From a virus (taxonomy: Duplodnaviria; Heunggongvirae; Uroviricota; Caudoviricetes): DNA of 64,000 nt. Below are positions 20,626 to 57,918 of this stretch, piece by piece. The DNA is taken from positions 60,977 to 124,976 of the IMG/VR virus record IMGVR_UViG_3300042922_000323; one strand, written 5' to 3'. Every line of letters begins with the position of its first letter. Within the stretch, counting starts at the first letter, position 1. The position numbers were made by a program, and so were the translations under genes. The notes beneath the pieces are model-generated. The model was not told the DNA's origin, did no database searches, and worked only from the letters and a program-made list of their open reading frames with translations.

Positions 20626-21402
20626 TTATGCTACTAAATCATCTATTGCATGGAAAACTGCTTTCCTTTTATCAGCAAACAACTGTACTGCTCCAAACCC
20701 AGTCCTGTTCATTGCATAACCTTTCTGTTCTCCGTAACCGCCATTACCTACGGCAGTACCTGTATTAACGAACAGTTGGTCTAACTCAGCACATTGGTCA
20801 CTACCAGGCTGTGGAAGAGTAATTTTCTTGTTGAAGGCAAACAATTTATGGGTGTGTCCCATCATATATACATGAGACATTGAAACCTCACGCATACTGA
20901 GAAGACCGTTTATAACACTGGTTTCTTTTGTGCCACCTGTAGCTCCGTGCCATGCGTGTATGGAATATGTAAGACCATCACCTGTATTAACGTTCACCAT
21001 TCCTTGGAACTTACAATAGGCATCATGTCTATTGAGTCTATGAGACAGTTCTTCGGTTATCTCGAAGGAAGTATCTCTTATAATTCTTTCTTCGTGGTTA
21101 CCTTCAACAATGCAATCTATAAGGTCTGCGTATGGTTTAAATGTCTCTACAGCAATCTCAAACTGTTTTTGTGTTGGGTAATTTTCATCATATACAGAAC
21201 GCCCAACAGAAGTCTTAGTGGCAAGTTCCAACAGGTCTCCCATCAGAACTATGCGACATCTATTTCTGTTTTTGTCTACAAAATTCAAGGCATCTTTAAG
21301 TTTTGCTTCATCAAAATACTTGTTACCGAAGTGAATGTCCCCTATAGGCACTATGAACATTGACTTGTGTGTGCCTTTGTATCCGCTTAATACTTGTTTC
21401 AT
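20626..21402 (-). CDS. Calcineurin-like metallophosphoesterase, with motifs GDIHFG, GDLLE, GNHE and GHTHK.
   Basis: Phosphoesterase motifs read in the translation. I placed the start at the internal Met (MKQVLSG…), which is preceded by GGGGG about 7 nt upstream. The ORF track start is 21471. Confidence 0.7.
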   Translation of the reverse strand: MKQVLSGYKGTHKSMFIVPIGDIHFGNKYFDEAKLKDALNFVDKNRNRCRIVLMGDLLELATKTSVGRSVYDENYPTQKQFEIAVETFKPYADLIDCIVEGNHEERIIRDTSFEITEELSHRLNRHDAYCKFQGMVNVNTGDGLTYSIHAWHGATGGTKETSVINGLLSMREVSMSHVYMMGHTHKLFAFNKKITLPQPGSDQCAELDQLFVNTGTAVGNGGYGEQKGYAMNRTGFGAVQLFADKRKAVFHAIDDLVA

Positions 21403-43952: not shown

Positions 43953-44029
43953 GGGGGAATAGCCAAGTTAGGTAAGGCAATAGATTGCAAATCTATGATT
44001 CGGCAGTTCAAATCTGCCTTCTCCCTCCA
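43953..44029 (+). tRNA. tRNA-Cys (anticodon GCA).
   Basis: GGGGGAATAGCCAAGTTAGGTAAGGCAATAGATTGCAAATCTATGATTCGGCAGTTCAAATCTGCCTTCTCCCTCCA folds as a cloverleaf with anticodon loop TTGCAAA and an encoded CCA. It resembles Bacillus tRNA-Cys. Confidence 0.85.
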
Positions 44030-44159
44030 AATAGTATCACAGAACAAGAGCAGGTCGGCTAGTCACCGAATAGTACTAGACCTTAACGCTAGACGTGACA
44101 ATCTGGTGGACAATAGGACAAACCCTATAACTCTGTGATACTACACCTAAATTTTATAT

Positions 44160-44352
44160 GTGCCTGTAGCTCAGCGGATAGAGCACAGTTAAACAGGAGA
44201 CTGGTTGCAATACCTGAATTTTGCAGATGCACCGAAAGGCATGTAAAGCCGACGTTGGTGAAATTCCAACTGACTGAAACGTGTAGGGAAGCCTGTTTGT
44301 AGGGTATACGCTTACGAAAGGAGCGTCAGTTCAAATCTGACCAGGCACGCCA
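44160..44352 (+). ncRNA. tRNA-like gene with a ~115-nt intervening segment. It has a perfect 7-bp acceptor (GTGCCTG/CAGGCAC), a canonical D-arm at the 5' end, and a canonical T-arm plus GCCA at the 3' end.
   Basis: Read directly. The anticodon arm could not be placed by eye. It may be an intron-bearing or insertion-disrupted tRNA. Confidence 0.45.
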
Positions 44353-44567
44353 CCCCGTAAGGGGCATAAAAGTTACCTCCGTACATATACAGACAGGACT
44401 AAGAAATTAGTCCTGTGTTGACCTTATATACATGAACTTGTAGACGCTTGTGCACAGCTACGGAACAAGGCTATATGGATGACACCACAGGAGTCATGAC
44501 CTGGGTCATGTATCATGATAGTGTATATAAGGCGAACATAGGATTAATTTAGAAAGGTGGTGATATT

Positions 44568-46611: not shown

Positions 46612-46670
46612 CTACTGCAGTACCCCCACGTATAAGTACTATGTAAGATTATTTATACGAGGTGTTTATA

Positions 46671-47054
46671 GTGAAAGAAAGTACTATGACGAGGGGAAGG
46701 GTTGCTGTATATGTACCCGACCACCCGAAAGCTAACAACAGGGGTTACGTTTTGAGAGCCAGGTATGTTATGGAACAATACCTGGGAAGGTATTTAACTT
46801 CTGATGAAGAAGTCCACCATATTAATGGCAACAAGACCGATGACAGAATAGAGAACCTAGTAGTGCTATCTAAGTCTGACCACGCTAAACTTCATATAGA
46901 ACAGGGCGATTTTGGTACTGGTAAAAGGCTAGATATTACTAAGGTCATGGAACTAAGGCAGTTAGGATTTGGCTATAAGAAAATAGCTAAAGAGTTAGGT
47001 TACCCTGTGGCTTCTGTAAAATCAGCCGTAAGGAAGATAGAAAGAGCCGCATGA
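46671..47054 (+). CDS. HNH endonuclease with a C-terminal HTH (…EVHHINGNKTDDRIENLVVLSKSDHAKLH…).
   Basis: HNH motif read in the translation. GTG start with RBS GAGGTG. The ORF track starts at 46662. Confidence 0.7.
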   Translation: MKESTMTRGRVAVYVPDHPKANNRGYVLRARYVMEQYLGRYLTSDEEVHHINGNKTDDRIENLVVLSKSDHAKLHIEQGDFGTGKRLDITKVMELRQLGFGYKKIAKELGYPVASVKSAVRKIERAA

Positions 47055-47293
47055 TAATAAATTTCCAATATTTGGGGATGATTTTGGTATCGACGGGCTT
47101 ATGAAGTGTTGTTCTCGCCCGAAGTCGCCCGTGGCTTCGATAAAACGGGCACTAAATTAAACGCTAAAAACGTATTAAATGCAGTAAAAGGTTTCTTTGC
47201 TTCCCTCGTACCAACTCCCGCTTTTGCAGGAGCTTGTGCGTAAGCTAGAGCCTTTCAAAACACCACACCTGCTACGGGTAAGTGGTTGAGGTC

Positions 47294-47477
47294 GGAGATA
47301 CATAGTGATAGTTTCCTGCATCGTTAATGCAGGTGGTGGATGGCTACGTAAACCAATACGTGCCCCAGTTTCAGCAGGTTTGTCAAACCGCCCCGCCAGG
47401 GTTAAAAGGCTACGGCGTGAATAAAGAACAACAGGGATTAGGTTCGGACACGGGTTCAACTCCCGTCATCTCCACCA
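47294..47477 (+). ncRNA. Candidate structured ncRNA (~184 nt) with a tRNA-like 3' end (T-arm ACGGGTTCAACTCCCGT, acceptor CATCTCC, A, CCA) pairing with a 5' GGAGATA. A rho-independent terminator (47479-47511) follows.
   Basis: Read and folded by hand. The internal hairpins (CCTGCATCGTTAATGCAGG, GGTTTGTCAAACC) lie in a region with no convincing ORF. Confidence 0.4.
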
Positions 47478-49371: not shown

Positions 49372-49440
49372 TTCCGTGTAGCTTAATGGTAGAGCAGCCC
49401 CCGAGGGGGGCGGATATTGGTTCGAACCCAATTACGGTAA
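49372..49440 (+). ncRNA. tRNA-like sequence with a non-canonical anticodon arm. The stem is GCCCC/GGGGC with a 5-nt loop, which alternatively folds as a 6-bp GC hairpin with loop GAG. It may be a pseudo-tRNA.
   Basis: D-arm TAGCTTAATGGTAGAGC and T-arm ATTGGTTCGAACCCAAT are canonical. The acceptor has one mismatch. No CCA is encoded. Confidence 0.3.
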
Positions 49441-54884: not shown

Positions 54885-54955
54885 AATAGGAGGTGGGCAA
54901 ATTGCCAAGAAAAGTAGTAAAGAAAGAAACAGAATTATCAGGAGGTAATGACGTT

Positions 54956-56506
54956 ATGAGTAATCCAGTACAGGCAGAAGATGTTATTAAGCCAGAGCAG
55001 TTGAACCTTATTATTTTGGCTTGCACTGACTGCGGTCAGGATTGCAGTAAATCTTATGGTGAGGTTGATGGCAAGCCTTTCTGTGACAAATGTTTTGATA
55101 AGAATTTCCGAGAGTGCACTGATTGTGGTAAACTCAAACCAAAAGCTGATGGAAAATTCTTCAAAAGAAAATTCTTTTGTATTGACTGCTATGACAGGAA
55201 GTACACCCTATGCGGACACTGCCACGAAAAGCTTGCAAAAGAAGATGCTAAAGAGCATGACGGAGTTCTGTACTGCCCGAAGTGCTTTGAAGAGCTGTTT
55301 GTAACATGTACTGACTGCGGTGCTGTTATGTTAAAAGATAGCACCGTAGTTCATGAGGGCAAGCATTACTGTCAGACTTGCTATGATGCAATGTTTGTAG
55401 AGTGTGTTGAATGTCACGCAAGAGTTCACAGAAGTAGTATTGTCCTGGTGGACGGTGAACCTTATTGTGGTCATTGCTTTGAGACTCAAACAGTTGAGTG
55501 CGACCATTGCCACAGAAGAGTAAACATTAACAATGCTCACGAAGATGAATATATTCACCTATGTAGTGATTGTTATGACAGTAACTATTACACTTGTGAT
55601 AGTTGTGGTAACTTTGTGCACGGCAATGATTTGGTGAGCAGAGGAAGTCAAACATTCTGCCCCGATTGTGCCCCTACGAGAGACATTCATGACTACTCGT
55701 TTAAACCTACCCCAAGATTCTACGGCGGATTTGACGAATTTGCCACATTCATGGGTGTTGAACTTGAATGTGACAGTGCAGGTGAGGACAGTGACAATGC
55801 AAGAAGAGTACTGAATATTACTAATGCAGAATACCGACTGCTCTATTGTAAGCATGATGGTTCACTAAATCGTGGATTTGAAATGGTTACCTATCCATGT
55901 ACCCTTGATTGGCACATGAATAAGTTCCCGTGGAAAGACGCACTGAAAAAATGTAGGTCAATGGGCTACAAGAGCCATGACAGTGGTAATTGTGGTCTAC
56001 ACGTACATATCAGCAGAAAAGCTTTTGGTACATCATTGGAAGACCAGGACGTTAACATCATGAAGTTATTGTTCTTCTTCGAGAAGTTCTGGACTAAGAT
56101 GGTTAGATTCTCACGAAGAACTGACTCTCAGCTTTCAAGATGGGCTAAAAGATATGGAATGAAGAGAACGCCGCAGGAGCTTCTGAATACTGCTAAAGGT
56201 TCAGAAAGATACTACGCCGTTAACCTTTGTAATCAAAAAACTATTGAGTTGAGATTGTTCAGGGGTACTCTTAAATATTCCACATTCATTGCCACTCTAC
56301 AGTTTGTACATGAACTTGTACGTATACTGAAAGAGTCATCAGTTGATGAAGTTACAAATACAAACTGGCTTGACTTTGTTAGGAAGATGAATCCTGAGTA
56401 CAGAGAACTCGGGGAATATCTTGAAAGAAGGGGCTTATCTTCTGAACCCATGACTACTGGCGTAGCTCGTGAGGATACAGATAACGACGAAGATACCGCC
56501 GCATAA
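54956..56506 (+). CDS. Fusion of an N-terminal seven-repeat LIM-like zinc-finger array (C-x2-C-x8-14-C-x2-C-F/Y) to a C-terminal amidoligase domain (Amidoligase_2-like, of the glutamine-synthetase or GCS-like fold; …GVELECDS…HDGSLNRGFEMVTYP…NCGLHVHIS…).
   Basis: Motifs read directly. The start is an ATG after GGAGGT, in frame with the ORF track ORF 54893-56506. I recognise the amidoligase fold by motif only. Confidence 0.55.
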   Translation: MSNPVQAEDVIKPEQLNLIILACTDCGQDCSKSYGEVDGKPFCDKCFDKNFRECTDCGKLKPKADGKFFKRKFFCIDCYDRKYTLCGHCHEKLAKEDAKEHDGVLYCPKCFEELFVTCTDCGAVMLKDSTVVHEGKHYCQTCYDAMFVECVECHARVHRSSIVLVDGEPYCGHCFETQTVECDHCHRRVNINNAHEDEYIHLCSDCYDSNYYTCDSCGNFVHGNDLVSRGSQTFCPDCAPTRDIHDYSFKPTPRFYGGFDEFATFMGVELECDSAGEDSDNARRVLNITNAEYRLLYCKHDGSLNRGFEMVTYPCTLDWHMNKFPWKDALKKCRSMGYKSHDSGNCGLHVHISRKAFGTSLEDQDVNIMKLLFFFEKFWTKMVRFSRRTDSQLSRWAKRYGMKRTPQELLNTAKGSERYYAVNLCNQKTIELRLFRGTLKYSTFIATLQFVHELVRILKESSVDEVTNTNWLDFVRKMNPEYRELGEYLERRGLSSEPMTTGVAREDTDNDEDTAA

Positions 56507-56586
56507 TTACTGTTAGCTGAGAGTCACCTGCATAAGTGGGTGGCTCTTTTAATTTACTTATTAAAAACTTAGGAGGTTTGATAATC

Positions 56587-57918
56587 ATGTGTGGATTATA
56601 CGGTTTCATTAACTATTCAGATAAGGAATTTAAGGGTCTTGATGCAGTTGTAGAACTGCTTGGTAAATCCTCCGCCGTAAGGGGTACAGACGCTACAGGT
56701 ATAGCGTACAATATGGACGGTAAGTTGCATATAGACAAAGATGCAAAGTCAGCTTATCAGTTCAAGTTTGATGTTCCTGACAGTTCAAAGGTTGTTATTG
56801 GGCACACTCGTAAGACAACCCAGGGAAATCAAAAGAAGAATTACAATAACCATCCGTTCCGTGGCAAAATTGGAGAGACTAACTTTGCTTTGGCGCATAA
56901 CGGGGTTATTCACAATGACCTGAGACTGAGAAATCAGTTGAAGCTTGAAAAACCAAAGATTGAGACTGACAGTTACGTAGCTGTTCAGTTGATTGAAAAA
57001 CACGGAACTTGGGGTATTGATGCCCTTAAATATGCAGGTGAAATGGTCGAGGGTATGTTCTCATTCACCTTAATGGATGACCAGGATAATTGGTATCTTG
57101 TTAAGAATGACTCCCCGCTCGTAATGCTCCATTTCCCTGAACTCGGGGTGTATGTATATGCTTCAACACAAACAATATTGTTTGAAGCCATACTATATAG
57201 CTCCGCTCTATCTTCTGAAATAATCAGCCCATTCAAGACAGGAGTTGTGAGTGCTGTTCTTCTTGAACCAAAAGCGGGGGATATATGGAAAATAAACAGC
57301 AAAACTGGTGAACTTGAAAAGTCCACATTTAAGCCATCAGATGATAGAAGATACTATGGAAATGGTTATGGCTATAACTCCTGCTACTGGGATGACTATG
57401 ACTGTGGATATGGAAGGGTGTGGGACGCTAAGGCAAACACCTGGAAAGAGAGTTCCACTAGCAGAAAGTCTACAACTACTATTTCCACAACTTCTACTAC
57501 AAGCACTGCCGCAAGCACCACTAAGAAAGAGAAGTCAAAGTATGACCCTGCAAAGGAAGCCAACAGGCTCACAGATAAGGAATACTATGACATGCTGTTA
57601 CAGGTTGCCGAAGGTATGGGGCATGATAGAAAGGATATTCGTATCTTAAAGAACTACGGATATGGGTTGGATGAAATTGAACAGGCTCTGTTTGATAGAA
57701 CACTTGATCTGTTGCTTGAAGAAGCCAAGCAAGTCGTAGGGGACAAGATAGATAATCTTGCAGGAGATACAGAACTTGATAAGGGCGACATTATAACTGA
57801 GGATGGTGCTTCTGTTAATCAGATTCTGAACGAAGTAGATGAAACCAACAAGAGAGCCGAAGCCGCCATAGCGTCGGCAACAGGAATATCATCGTCAGTC
57901 GTTATTGAAGAAGACTAG
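56587..57918 (+). CDS. Class-II (Ntn) glutamine amidotransferase-like protein with an N-terminal Met-Cys nucleophile (MCGLYGF…) and a Ser/Thr-rich, coiled C-terminal extension.
   Basis: MCG at the N-terminus after RBS GGAGG. A GATase-II-like core follows (…GHTRKTTQG…). It is adjacent to the amidoligase gene, as expected for amidoligase-GATase systems. Confidence 0.55.
   Translation: MCGLYGFINYSDKEFKGLDAVVELLGKSSAVRGTDATGIAYNMDGKLHIDKDAKSAYQFKFDVPDSSKVVIGHTRKTTQGNQKKNYNNHPFRGKIGETNFALAHNGVIHNDLRLRNQLKLEKPKIETDSYVAVQLIEKHGTWGIDALKYAGEMVEGMFSFTLMDDQDNWYLVKNDSPLVMLHFPELGVYVYASTQTILFEAILYSSALSSEIISPFKTGVVSAVLLEPKAGDIWKINSKTGELEKSTFKPSDDRRYYGNGYGYNSCYWDDYDCGYGRVWDAKANTWKESSTSRKSTTTISTTSTTSTAASTTKKEKSKYDPAKEANRLTDKEYYDMLLQVAEGMGHDRKDIRILKNYGYGLDEIEQALFDRTLDLLLEEAKQVVGDKIDNLAGDTELDKGDIITEDGASVNQILNEVDETNKRAEAAIASATGISSSVVIEED

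What the first reader, a model, noticed from the sequence alone, without database searches (positions are those of the whole stretch)
44160..44352. tRNA gene with perfect acceptor, D-arm and T-arm but a ~115-nt intervening segment
The 5' end reads GTGCCTG-TA-GCTCAGCGGATAGAGC-A, a canonical acceptor plus D-arm. The 3' end reads GTCAGTTCAAATCTGAC-CAGGCAC-G-CCA, a T-arm plus a perfectly complementary acceptor. About 115 nt lie between them. That segment contains its own long-range pairing (AAACAGG…CCTGTTT) and several hairpins, and no ORF. It is too short for a typical group I intron, yet it is cleanly bounded by tRNA halves. It could be a compact intron, a small insertion element in a phage tRNA gene, or a tRNA-derived structured RNA. 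It sits in a tRNA cluster and an HNH endonuclease gene lies 2.3 kb downstream.
Basis: seen in the sequence. Interest (0 to 1): 0.65.

Follow-up and report, generated by a model that had tools for sequence, protein, structure and literature searches.

The report
New tRNA-shaped RNA with built-in domain
The "split tRNA gene" is most likely not a tRNA with an intron: it belongs to a conserved, apparently undescribed family of tRNA-shaped RNAs, found in phages, plasmids and Firmicute chromosomes, that carry a ~115-nt folded domain in the variable loop and probably do not decode.

Summary
Window 44160-44352 (+) has a perfect 7-bp acceptor stem, D-arm, T-arm, G73 and CCA around ~140 nt of other sequence. 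Default ARAGORN and Rfam do not call it.

The intron reading is not supported. An invariant 22-mer from the insert led to homologues in six metagenome loci (Clostridia-type chromosomes). BLAST then found 18 Bacillales plasmids, eight from Listeria monocytogenes, and 13 Streptomyces phages. All are unannotated and none reaches an Rfam gathering score.

- **Shared architecture:** tRNA core, an anticodon-position hairpin whose loop starts AAAAC (no U33), then G-U, then a long arm. The arm ends in a conserved core with a T-loop-like hairpin and an invariant GUAGGGAAG. A46-N-Y48 and the T-arm follow.
- **Covariation:** 28 of 41 pairs show compensatory changes and 98.7% of cells pair, against 31-44% when the partners are slid. 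The Levitt pair also covaries.
- **Intron test:** no single deletion restores a canonical tRNA in any of four members tested.

A group-I-like P1/P10/omega-G reading giving tRNA-Arg(CCU) fits this sequence alone and fails in the relatives.

Best reading: a stable, tRNA-Arg-derived, non-decoding RNA with a functional domain in the variable loop. Its function is unknown.

The parts
44160..44166 (+). Acceptor stem, 5' strand GUGCCUG (idx 1-7)
   Evidence: 7/7 pairs with 44342-44348. All 7 acceptor pairs show compensatory changes across 10 homologues (helix 1).
44167..44185 (+). U8-A9, D-arm GCUC-AGCGGAUA-GAGC with G18 G19 A20, and A26
   Evidence: Read. The 5' half is 96% identical to Bacillus phage G tRNA-Arg. 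The same 23-mer occurs in IMG/VR only in ordinary tRNA-Arg genes.
44186..44203 (+). Hairpin at the anticodon-arm position: CAGU / loop UAAACAGGAG / ACUG. The loop begins (A)AAAC and has no U33.
   Evidence: The stem covaries: CAGU/ACUG, CGGU/ACCG, GGGU/ACCC, CCGG/CCGG, CCCGU/ACGGG (helix 3, 4/4 pairs with double changes). Pair probability is 0.89.
44204..44228 (+). G44-U45 equivalents, then S1, the 5' strand of the long arm (UUGCAAUACCUGAAUUUUGCAGAU)
   Evidence: G-U after the hairpin is invariant. S1 pairs with S2: GC/GC (44207-8 with 44310-1) and AUACCU/GGGUAU (44210-15 with 44302-07). Across the family, helices 4 and 5 have 7/9 pairs with double changes.
44229..44291 (+). Conserved core: GCACC-GAAA-h1 (GGC..GCC, 44238-44250)-GAC-h2 (GUUGG-UGAAAUU-CCAAC, 44254-44270)-UGACUGAAACGUGUAGGGAAG
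   Evidence: Mean column identity is 90% over 5 sequences. The 22-mer 44270-44291 is identical in 6 metagenome loci. The h1 and h2 stems covary. The h2 loop and closing pairs equal the FMN-riboswitch P5 T-loop hairpin. Covariance model R1 scores 83-93 bits on full members.
44292..44321 (+). S2, the 3' strand of the long arm, plus a tail (CCUGUUUGUAGGGUAUACGCUUACGAAAGG)
   Evidence: It pairs with S1. The tail GCUUACGAAAGG is shared with L045, L042 and all plasmid members.
44322..44324 (+). Variable-loop remainder A46-G47-C48
   Evidence: A46 is invariant in the six members compared by eye (alignment A2). N48 covaries with N15: G15-C48 here and in phage GiJojo, A15-U48 in L041, L045 and L046.
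44325..44341 (+). T-arm GUCAG-UUCAAAU-CUGAC
   Evidence: Read. Pair probability is 0.98-1.0. It covaries (helix 9).
44342..44352 (+). Acceptor 3' strand CAGGCAC, discriminator G73, encoded CCA
   Evidence: Read. CCA is also encoded in L041, L044 and L046, but not in the plasmid or Streptomyces-phage members.

Best explanation
The element is one gene for a stable RNA of about 190 nt. It is a member of a conserved family of tRNA-shaped RNAs that none of the databases searched here describes.

**Architecture.** The RNA has a complete tRNA core derived from tRNA-Arg: acceptor stem, D-arm with A20, T-arm, nt 26 and the 15-48 pair. Its anticodon-position hairpin has an enlarged loop that starts AAAAC and lacks U33. 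Between variable-loop positions 45 and 46 it carries a domain of about 115 nt. That domain is a long irregular helix, with S1 paired to S2. The helix ends in a conserved multi-helix core with a T-loop-type hairpin, a second UGAAA segment and the invariant GUAGGGAAG. The topology is that of a class II tRNA whose long variable arm has grown into a functional domain, much as helix 2 of tmRNA leads to its functional part.

**What is shown.** Family membership, the secondary structure and the absence of a canonical anticodon loop.

**What is inferred.**
- The RNA is made and trimmed like a tRNA, by RNase P, 3' processing and the CCA enzyme. This fits three facts: it lies beside or inside tRNA arrays in three contexts, the plasmid copies have a TATAAT box 5-10 nt upstream of nt 1, and several copies are followed by terminators.
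- It is not spliced and does not decode.
- The appended domain is the working part and binds a partner. T-loop modules of this kind usually dock on another RNA surface, such as a tRNA elbow, or help form a ligand pocket.
- A20 and C35 are conserved in most members, so recognition or charging by arginyl-tRNA synthetase is possible. This was not tested.
For: **Homologues**
- The 22-mer CTGACTGAAACGTGTAGGGAAG has six exact hits in metagenome contigs, each inside a tRNA-like gene with different arm sequences.
- BLAST with one of them finds 18 Bacillales plasmids and 13 Streptomyces phages.

**Structure**
- RNAalifold on 10 full-length members predicts 41 pairs, 28 with compensatory changes.
- In pair counts, 98.7% of cells are paired against 31-44% when partners are slid by 1-3 columns, and 0/500 shuffles reach any measure. 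The long-range S1-S2 helices have 7/9 pairs with double changes.
- Helix X is flipped in this window: AUACCU/GGGUAU, against AAGG/CCUU, ACGG/CCGU, AGGG/CCCU and GAGG/CCUC elsewhere.
- The Levitt pair covaries: G15-C48 or A15-U48.

**Position of the domain**
- Deleting only the domain between G44-U45 and A46 gives clean cloverleaves. L045 is then called tRNA-Arg(ACG), 75 nt, but with A33.
- No single deletion gives a canonical tRNA in four members.

**Not a known family**
- No member reaches any Rfam gathering score.
- No paper in the library contains the core sequences.

**Context and origin**
- Chromosomal copies stand alone between unrelated genes: after rplU-prp-rpmA, before spoIIIAA, before an SPFH gene.
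- Some copies lie in tRNA arrays.
- The 5' half matches only tRNA-Arg genes.
Against: - No expression or size data exist for any member, so a processing or splicing step cannot be excluded.
- The independent sample is small. The five plasmid sequences are 93-96% identical to each other, so there are only about six lineages. The structure tested was predicted from the same alignment.
- Helix 6, which closes the core, never varies and is therefore untested.
- The Streptomyces-phage members are shorter (153 nt) and lack h1 and h2, so the 'core' is not universal.
- Conserved introns with a conserved ribozyme core in a conserved host gene would also show covariation.
- U45 before the domain is invariant, like a group I U-1.
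- The function is inferred only from architecture.
Confidence: 0.62

Rival explanations
1. It is a tRNA-like gene with a conserved intron in the variable loop, between U45 and A46. The intron is removed by self-splicing or by proteins and leaves a ~75-nt tRNA-like product.
For: Removing exactly this segment gives a perfect cloverleaf in L045 (tRNA-Arg(ACG), 75 nt) and a near-cloverleaf here. U45 is invariant. A conserved structured core is what a ribozyme intron would show. Relatives of this phage lineage encode RtcB and RNA ligases.
Against: The product would still lack U33 and would have 7-16-nt loops starting AAAAC, so it would not decode. The last nucleotide before A46 is G, C or A, so there is no omega-G. 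There is no Rfam group I or II match. No bacterial splicing endonuclease is known for this position (established knowledge). No RtcB gene was found in the window or in the 10 kb downstream of it.
Confidence: 0.12
2. It is a tRNA-Arg(CCU) gene split at 33/34 by a miniature 101-nt group-I-like intron (44191-44291). P1 is CAGUU/GACUG with a U.G wobble at the 5' splice site. P10 is AAACAGG/CCUGUUU. G132 is omega-G.
For: This geometry exists in the window sequence. The ligated exons are called tRNA-Arg(CCT) by ARAGORN. Only 8 of 20,000 interior shuffles combine such a guide pairing with an Arg call. AGG makes up 23% of Arg codons in the phage. 33/34 is a known group I insertion site (PMC13011429).
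Against: In homologues the U pairs with A, not G. G132-C133 pair with G70-C71 inside the core. The 'P10' partner is not conserved, and the 3' 'exon' is the S2 strand of a covarying helix. The guide pairing alone occurs in 4.8% of shuffles, and ARAGORN of 2640 arbitrary deletions a tRNA. The product has a 4-bp anticodon stem, no nt 26 and a 24-nt variable region, and it prefers a 14-bp arm. There is no catalytic core, and the size is below the 184-nt minimum.
Confidence: 0.03
3. It has the architecture described above, but the appended domain is a small-molecule aptamer. The RNA is then a ligand-sensing tRNA mimic, a riboswitch-like sensor carried on a tRNA body, rather than a binder of a macromolecule.
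For: The core has features typical of aptamers: invariant joining strands around short covarying helices. Its T-loop hairpin GGUGAAAUUCC is identical to one in FMN riboswitches. The plasmid members carry two such hairpins.
Against: The FMN model matches only 17 nt at 8.9 bits. No downstream gene is shared, so there is no expression platform. The Streptomyces-phage members lack h1 and h2.
Confidence: 0.15
4. It is a decayed tRNA-Arg pseudogene disrupted by foreign DNA, with no function.
For: There is no canonical anticodon loop. No close relative of this phage is available.
Against: All tRNA core helices and tertiary pairs are intact, and the same composite is conserved with compensatory changes across Clostridia, Bacillales plasmids and Streptomyces phages.
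Confidence: 0.02

Closest known systems
Class II tRNAs (Leu, Ser, bacterial Tyr), which have a long variable arm
   Same: The junction has the same five arms: acceptor, D, anticodon-position hairpin, an extra arm leaving after nt 44-45, and T-arm. The 15-48 pair and the elbow are intact.
   Different: The extra arm is about 115 nt with its own conserved multi-helix core, not 13-21 nt. It is followed by 8-12 further nt. The body is tRNA-Arg-like, which is class I. The anticodon loop is non-canonical: AAAAC..., no U33, 7-16 nt.
tmRNA (Rfam RF00023)
   Same: It has a tRNA-like domain with acceptor, T-arm and CCA, from which a long helix leads to a functional domain. It is encoded by bacteria and by phages; this phage has one at 47074-47477.
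   Different: There is no G3.U70 alanine identity; here the pair is G3-C70. A full D-arm and an anticodon-position hairpin are present. There is no conserved reading frame, because h1 loop lengths are 3, 6 or 7 nt. The RNA is ~190 nt rather than ~360 nt. There is no Rfam match.
YrlA / bacterial Y RNAs (Rfam RF02553; Chen et al. 2014, PMC4201824)
   Same: They are non-decoding tRNA mimics on chromosomes and phages. A related phage contig (L007) carries YrlA-like RNAs next to a Ro60 gene.
   Different: In YrlA the ends lie at the anticodon side and the acceptor is closed by a loop, so the topology is permuted (my recollection of the paper, not checked here). There is no RF02553 match at E<=10. 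No Ro60 gene lies in the window or in the 10 kb downstream.
Phage T4 species 1 RNA (rnaC), a stable RNA beside tRNA-Arg
   Same: It is a phage stable RNA of similar size (139 nt) in a tRNA cluster, with a canonical T-arm CCGGG-UUCGAAU-CCCGG, a terminal stem and unknown function.
   Different: There is no sequence similarity. rnaC shows no D-arm in the predicted fold and none of the conserved core.
Bacterial tRNA genes with group I introns (subgroup IC3)
   Same: A tRNA gene is interrupted by structured RNA that standard tRNA finders miss. The window sequence mimics P1, P10 and omega-G.
   Different: Those introns are 184-894 nt, sit in the anticodon loop, match RF00028 and leave a canonical tRNA. 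None of this holds here.
FMN riboswitch P5 hairpin and other T-loop modules
   Same: The hairpin NNNGGUGAAAUUCCNNN is identical in its loop and closing pairs.
   Different: Only this 17-nt module matches, at 8.9 bits against a gathering score of 66. The rest of the aptamer is absent.

Membership tests
Canonical decoding tRNA (RF00005) | 7-bp acceptor, D-arm, T-arm with TPsiC-type loop, 15-48 and elbow nucleotides | tested here: met
Canonical decoding tRNA (RF00005) | 5-bp anticodon stem with a 7-nt loop carrying U33 and R37, and a total score at or above the gathering score of 29 bits | tested here: not met
   Not called by default ARAGORN or by Rfam. The best partial score is 18.3 bits. The loop is UAAACAGGAG.
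Group I intron in a tRNA gene (RF00028) | Catalytic core P3-P9 detectable by the covariance model | tested here: not met
   No hit at E<=10 on 501 nt or on 121 nt.
Group I intron in a tRNA gene (RF00028) | U-1 in a G.U wobble in P1, and omega-G before the 3' exon, conserved among homologues | tested here: not met
   Present only in the window sequence. In homologues the U pairs with A, and G132 pairs with C71.
Group I intron in a tRNA gene (RF00028) | Removal restores a canonical tRNA | tested here: not met
   No solution in four members.
Group I intron in a tRNA gene (RF00028) | Self-splicing activity | not testable with these tools
   Needs in-vitro transcription with GTP and Mg2+.
Archaeal-type (bulge-helix-bulge) tRNA intron | Two 3-nt bulges separated by a 4-bp helix at the exon-intron borders | tested here: not met
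   By reading: the S1-S2 arm has 1x1 and 1x2 internal loops, not opposed 3-nt bulges. The AAACAGG/CCUGUUU helix joins intron-5' to exon-3', the opposite arrangement.
tmRNA (RF00023) | G3.U70 pair, resume codon and tag reading frame, pseudoknots, covariance-model match | tested here: not met
   The pair is G3-C70. No frame is conserved. No Rfam match.
YrlA Y RNA (RF02553) | Covariance-model match, Ro-binding terminal stem, linkage to an rsr (Ro60) gene | tested here: not met
   No hit at E<=10. No TROVE protein in the window or the 10 kb downstream of it.
New family proposed here (tRNA-shaped RNA with a variable-loop domain) | tRNA core, hairpin with AAAAC loop, G-U, S1/S2 arm, core ending in GUAGGGAAG, A46-N-Y48 | tested here: met
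   Window member: 92.9 bits with core model R1. All helices are present.
New family proposed here (tRNA-shaped RNA with a variable-loop domain) | Accumulates as a full-length ~190-nt RNA; aminoacylation status | not testable with these tools
   Needs Northern blot, RNA-seq and acid-gel charging assays.

The most novel reading that the evidence does not exclude
This is a new functional class of RNA in Gram-positive bacteria and their mobile elements. It would be a tRNA-Arg mimic that tRNA enzymes process, and arginyl-tRNA synthetase perhaps charges. Its giant variable-loop domain, built from T-loop modules, would capture a specific partner: another tRNA's elbow, a tRNA-binding protein or a metabolite. 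The RNA would then couple the tRNA or aminoacylation machinery to a non-translational task. Phages and plasmids would carry it to manipulate that task.
Probability: 0.3. Interest if true: 0.9.

Novelty: new variant of a known kind. Interest (0 to 1): 0.78.

Why it matters
tRNA-shaped RNAs that do not decode, such as tmRNA and Y RNAs, have each revealed a pathway. This family has gone unannotated, yet it sits in well-studied material: Listeria monocytogenes plasmids next to the bcrABC disinfectant-resistance cassette, the tRNA arrays of Streptomyces phages, and Clostridia-type chromosomes.

It shows that a tRNA variable loop can host a large conserved domain. It also explains 'gaps' in phage tRNA arrays and some 'split tRNA' calls. 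Cultured hosts exist, so the family is a directly testable target. If the RNA is charged or binds tRNAs, it would be a new way for mobile elements to interact with the translation apparatus.

Tried and rejected
**Standard finders.** Default ARAGORN and Rfam do not call the element. ARAGORN in intron mode gives tRNA-Val(AAC) with a 99-nt intron, but with a mismatched stem and no U33. I rejected this because ARAGORN accepts 29% of arbitrary deletions.

**Group-I-like reading giving tRNA-Arg(CCU)**. It was attractive on this sequence alone. Homologues rejected it.

**The 8-bp hairpin 44296-44318 as an anticodon arm.** It is not conserved. Its 5' strand belongs to helix X.

**Other readings I checked by eye against the sequence and rejected:** a mini-ORF or tmRNA-like reading, a hammerhead, CsrA sites, a Ro-binding helix, and a target-site duplication from a mobile insertion.

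**Searches for relatives that found nothing**
- Neighbouring proteins: the 134-aa neighbour has no homologue. A concatenated query failed, probably because candidates were capped.
- SPFH-gene relatives lack the element.
- Jenst and EZ-2018a share only the structural module.
- DNA patterns gave no hits, and one gave a false positive from two adjacent tRNA-Arg genes.
- BLAST of this window's element against phages gave only tRNA-half matches.

**Loop-to-S2 pseudoknot.** Significant only in this member, so left as inconclusive.

Full report
**1. The observation**

Window 44160-44352 (+) reads GUGCCUG-UA-GCUC-AGCGGAUA-GAGC-A ... GUCAG-UUCAAAU-CUGAC-CAGGCAC-G-CCA. The acceptor stem (7/7), D-stem (4/4) and T-stem (5/5) are perfect. 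U8, A14, G18, G19 and the G15/C48 pair are in place.

Default ARAGORN and Rfam at gathering scores call tRNA-Cys (43953-44029), a tmRNA (47074-47477), tRNA-Trp and a 69-nt tRNA-like gene, but not this element. A purpose-written scan for acceptor, D-arm and T-arm separated by 95-400 nt found no comparable case in about 300 kb. ARAGORN in intron mode calls only this one in the window.

**2. Source**

The window is part of a ~125-kb phage contig: Logan SRR35179700, plus an identical protein from JGI. Its terminase is 52% identical to Brevibacillus phage Jenst and Bacillus phage EZ-2018a. Only the structural module is shared with them.

**3. First attempts on the single sequence**

- Rfam at E<=10 shows no group I or II intron or ribozyme, only an 18-bit partial tRNA match. 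The interior folds no better than shuffles, z=-0.95.
- The 5' half is a tRNA-Arg 5' half: 96% identical to phage G tRNA-Arg, and the same 23-mer occurs in IMG/VR only in tRNA-Arg(UCU/CCU) genes.
- I then noticed a group-I-like geometry: CAGUU/GACUG with a terminal U.G, AAACAGG/CCUGUUU, and a G before the latter. Joining idx 31 to 133 gives an anticodon loop UUCCUGU, that is tRNA-Arg(CCU).
- Shuffling the interior gave such a guide pairing in 4.8% of cases, and together with an Arg call in 0.04%. AGG is a frequent codon in the phage.
- Three things spoke against it. The product has a 4-bp anticodon stem, no nt 26 and a 24-nt variable region. ARAGORN accepts 761 of 2640 arbitrary deletions. Known bacterial tRNA group I introns are 184-894 nt (PMC13011429; Williams 2020).

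**4. Finding relatives**

Searches through neighbouring proteins and several DNA patterns failed. The 22-mer CTGACTGAAACGTGTAGGGAAG (44270-44291) then hit six metagenome loci exactly.

In every case it lies inside a tRNA-like gene with different acceptor, D and T sequences. Their contexts are Firmicute chromosomes:
- after rplU-prp-rpmA;
- between an S1-domain gene and spoIIIAA/AE;
- just upstream of an SPFH gene;
- at the head of a 10-tRNA array.

BLAST with one of these found full-length relatives (~72% identity) on Bacillales plasmids. A plasmid query then found 18 plasmids: 8 Listeria monocytogenes, next to Tn3 transposase and bcrABC, plus Cytobacillus, Peribacillus, Bacillus and Priestia. 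A shorter form (153 nt) sits in the tRNA arrays of 13 Streptomyces phages.

None of these loci has a feature under the match, apart from one 'hypothetical protein'. The plasmid gene table lists no RNA genes, so RNA annotation in the original plasmid records cannot be excluded. None reaches any Rfam gathering score. The library of papers does not contain the core sequences.

**5. Structure from comparison**

All members share this order:
- acceptor, U8 A9, D-arm and N26;
- a 4-5-bp hairpin whose loop begins AAAAC (UAAAC here) and is 7-16 nt long;
- an invariant G-U;
- strand S1;
- the core GCACC-GAAA-h1-GAC-h2-...GUAGGGAAG;
- strand S2 and a tail;
- A46-N47-Y48, T-arm, acceptor.

S1 pairs with S2 in three blocks:
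- V: GC/GC, or GU/AC in L041.
- W: AGUC/GACU, AGGC/GCCU, AGGU/GCCU, ACGUC/GCCGU, AGCGA/UCGCU, ACAGA/UCUGU.
- X: AAGG/CCUU, ACGG/CCGU, AGGG/CCCU, GAGG/CCUC, CAAGG/CCUUG. In this window the strands are swapped, AUACCU/GGGUAU.

The h2 hairpin has a 5-bp stem with five different versions of its two variable pairs and a 7-nt loop UGAAAUU, GGAAGUU or GGGAGUU. This equals the T-loop hairpin of FMN riboswitches. The plasmid members have a second such hairpin where this window has CUGACUGAAACGUG.

On ten full-length sequences RNAalifold predicts 41 pairs, 28 with compensatory changes. In the pair counts:
- 98.7% of cells are paired, against 31-44% when partners are slid by 1-3 columns.
- 0/500 shuffles reach the observed value on any measure.
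- The S1-S2 helices have 7 of 9 pairs with changes on both sides.

Three caveats apply. The structure was predicted from the same alignment. The five plasmid sequences are close relatives. Helix 6 never varies.

The tertiary 15-48 pair covaries as well: G-C in this window and in GiJojo, A-U in L041, L045 and L046.

**6. Intron or domain?**

- No single deletion yields a tRNA with a 5-bp anticodon stem (at most one mismatch), U33, R37 and a 4-6-nt variable loop in any of four members.
- The 5' strand of the hairpin has no partner other than its own 3' strand.
- Deleting only the part between G44-U45 and A46 gives clean cloverleaves. L045 becomes 'tRNA-Arg(ACG)', 75 nt. This places the domain in the variable loop.
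- Those cloverleaves still have A33 and odd loops, so they would not decode.
- The nucleotide before A46 is not conserved, and G132-C133 of the window pair with G70-C71.
It is only 4-5 bp in relatives, no better than chance.

I therefore read the interior as an integral domain, not an intron. An intron at 45/46 remains a minority possibility.

**7. Mechanism (inferred)**

The RNA should be transcribed alone or with tRNAs. The plasmid copies have TATAAT 5-10 nt upstream of nt 1 (sequences). Terminators follow L041, L045, L046 and L047. It should be matured by tRNA-processing enzymes and fold into an L-shape, with a long arm projecting from the variable-loop side.

By established knowledge, T-loop modules dock onto tRNA elbows in T-box Stem I, RNase P and the L1 stalk, or build ligand pockets in FMN and cobalamin aptamers. 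A20 is conserved in the non-plasmid members, and C at position 35 in 8 of 10. These are the main ArgRS determinants in E. coli (my knowledge, not tested). Partner binding by a possibly arginine-accepting tRNA mimic is my best guess. The function is not shown.

**8. Comparison and novelty**

The topology is that of a class II tRNA with an overgrown variable arm, and it recalls tmRNA. It fails the defining tests of tRNA, tmRNA, YrlA, group I introns and the FMN riboswitch (see the membership table). T4 species 1 RNA is a functional analogue at best.

I rate it a new variant of the known kind 'tRNA-like non-coding RNA'. It is widespread and experimentally accessible.

Noticed in passing
window 47074-47477 (+) and 46662-47054 (+): The phage encodes a tmRNA (Rfam 108 bits, full length). 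An HNH endonuclease ORF ends 20 nt upstream of it.
   Followed up: partly
window 49372-49440 (+); L012:1308-1379; L013: A 69-nt tRNA-like gene, called tRNA-Leu(GAG) at 43 bits, has a non-canonical anticodon loop CCGAGGG with no U33 and a mismatched acceptor. It is conserved just downstream of the SPFH gene in the closest relatives, where the loop is CGAUAAG. It is probably another non-decoding tRNA mimic.
   Followed up: partly
window 44027-44159 and 44353-44567 (+): The spacers on both sides of the element are themselves unusually structured. The upstream one is a 110-nt unit closed by a 12-bp stem (z=-3.86). The downstream one is a long imperfect inverted repeat (z=-4.55). No Rfam match.
   Followed up: no
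L007:11412-15895; L009:11006-12232: A related phage contig (SPFH protein 58% identical) has a Ro60/TROVE gene. A 3-kb gene-free stretch precedes it, with two full-length sub-threshold YrlA matches and tRNA-core-only matches. Another relative has RtcB next to the SPFH gene.
   Followed up: partly
L047:3995-4190 (Listeria plasmid pCFSAN021143, record 20959-21154): The Listeria plasmid member of the family lies between a Tn3-family transposase and the bcrABC benzalkonium-resistance cassette. It is 100% identical in eight plasmids.
   Followed up: partly
L052:1495-1648 (Streptomyces phage GiJojo 7205-7358): A 153-nt short form of the family fills an unannotated gap between tRNA-Asp and tRNA-Glu. 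In phage LuckySocke the homologous stretch is annotated as a hypothetical protein.
   Followed up: partly
L044:1-1273: In one chromosomal context the family member is immediately followed by an SPFH/Band 7 gene. This phage has one 3.8 kb downstream of its copy. This may be coincidence.
   Followed up: no
window 54893-57918 (+): Adjacent genes encode an Amidoligase_2 protein with zinc-ribbon/LIM-like repeats and a class II glutamine amidotransferase.
   Followed up: no
L038:2909-3047 (-) (phage T4 rnaC): T4 species 1 RNA has a canonical T-arm and folds with z=-4.57. Species 2 RNA does not (z=-0.83).
   Followed up: no
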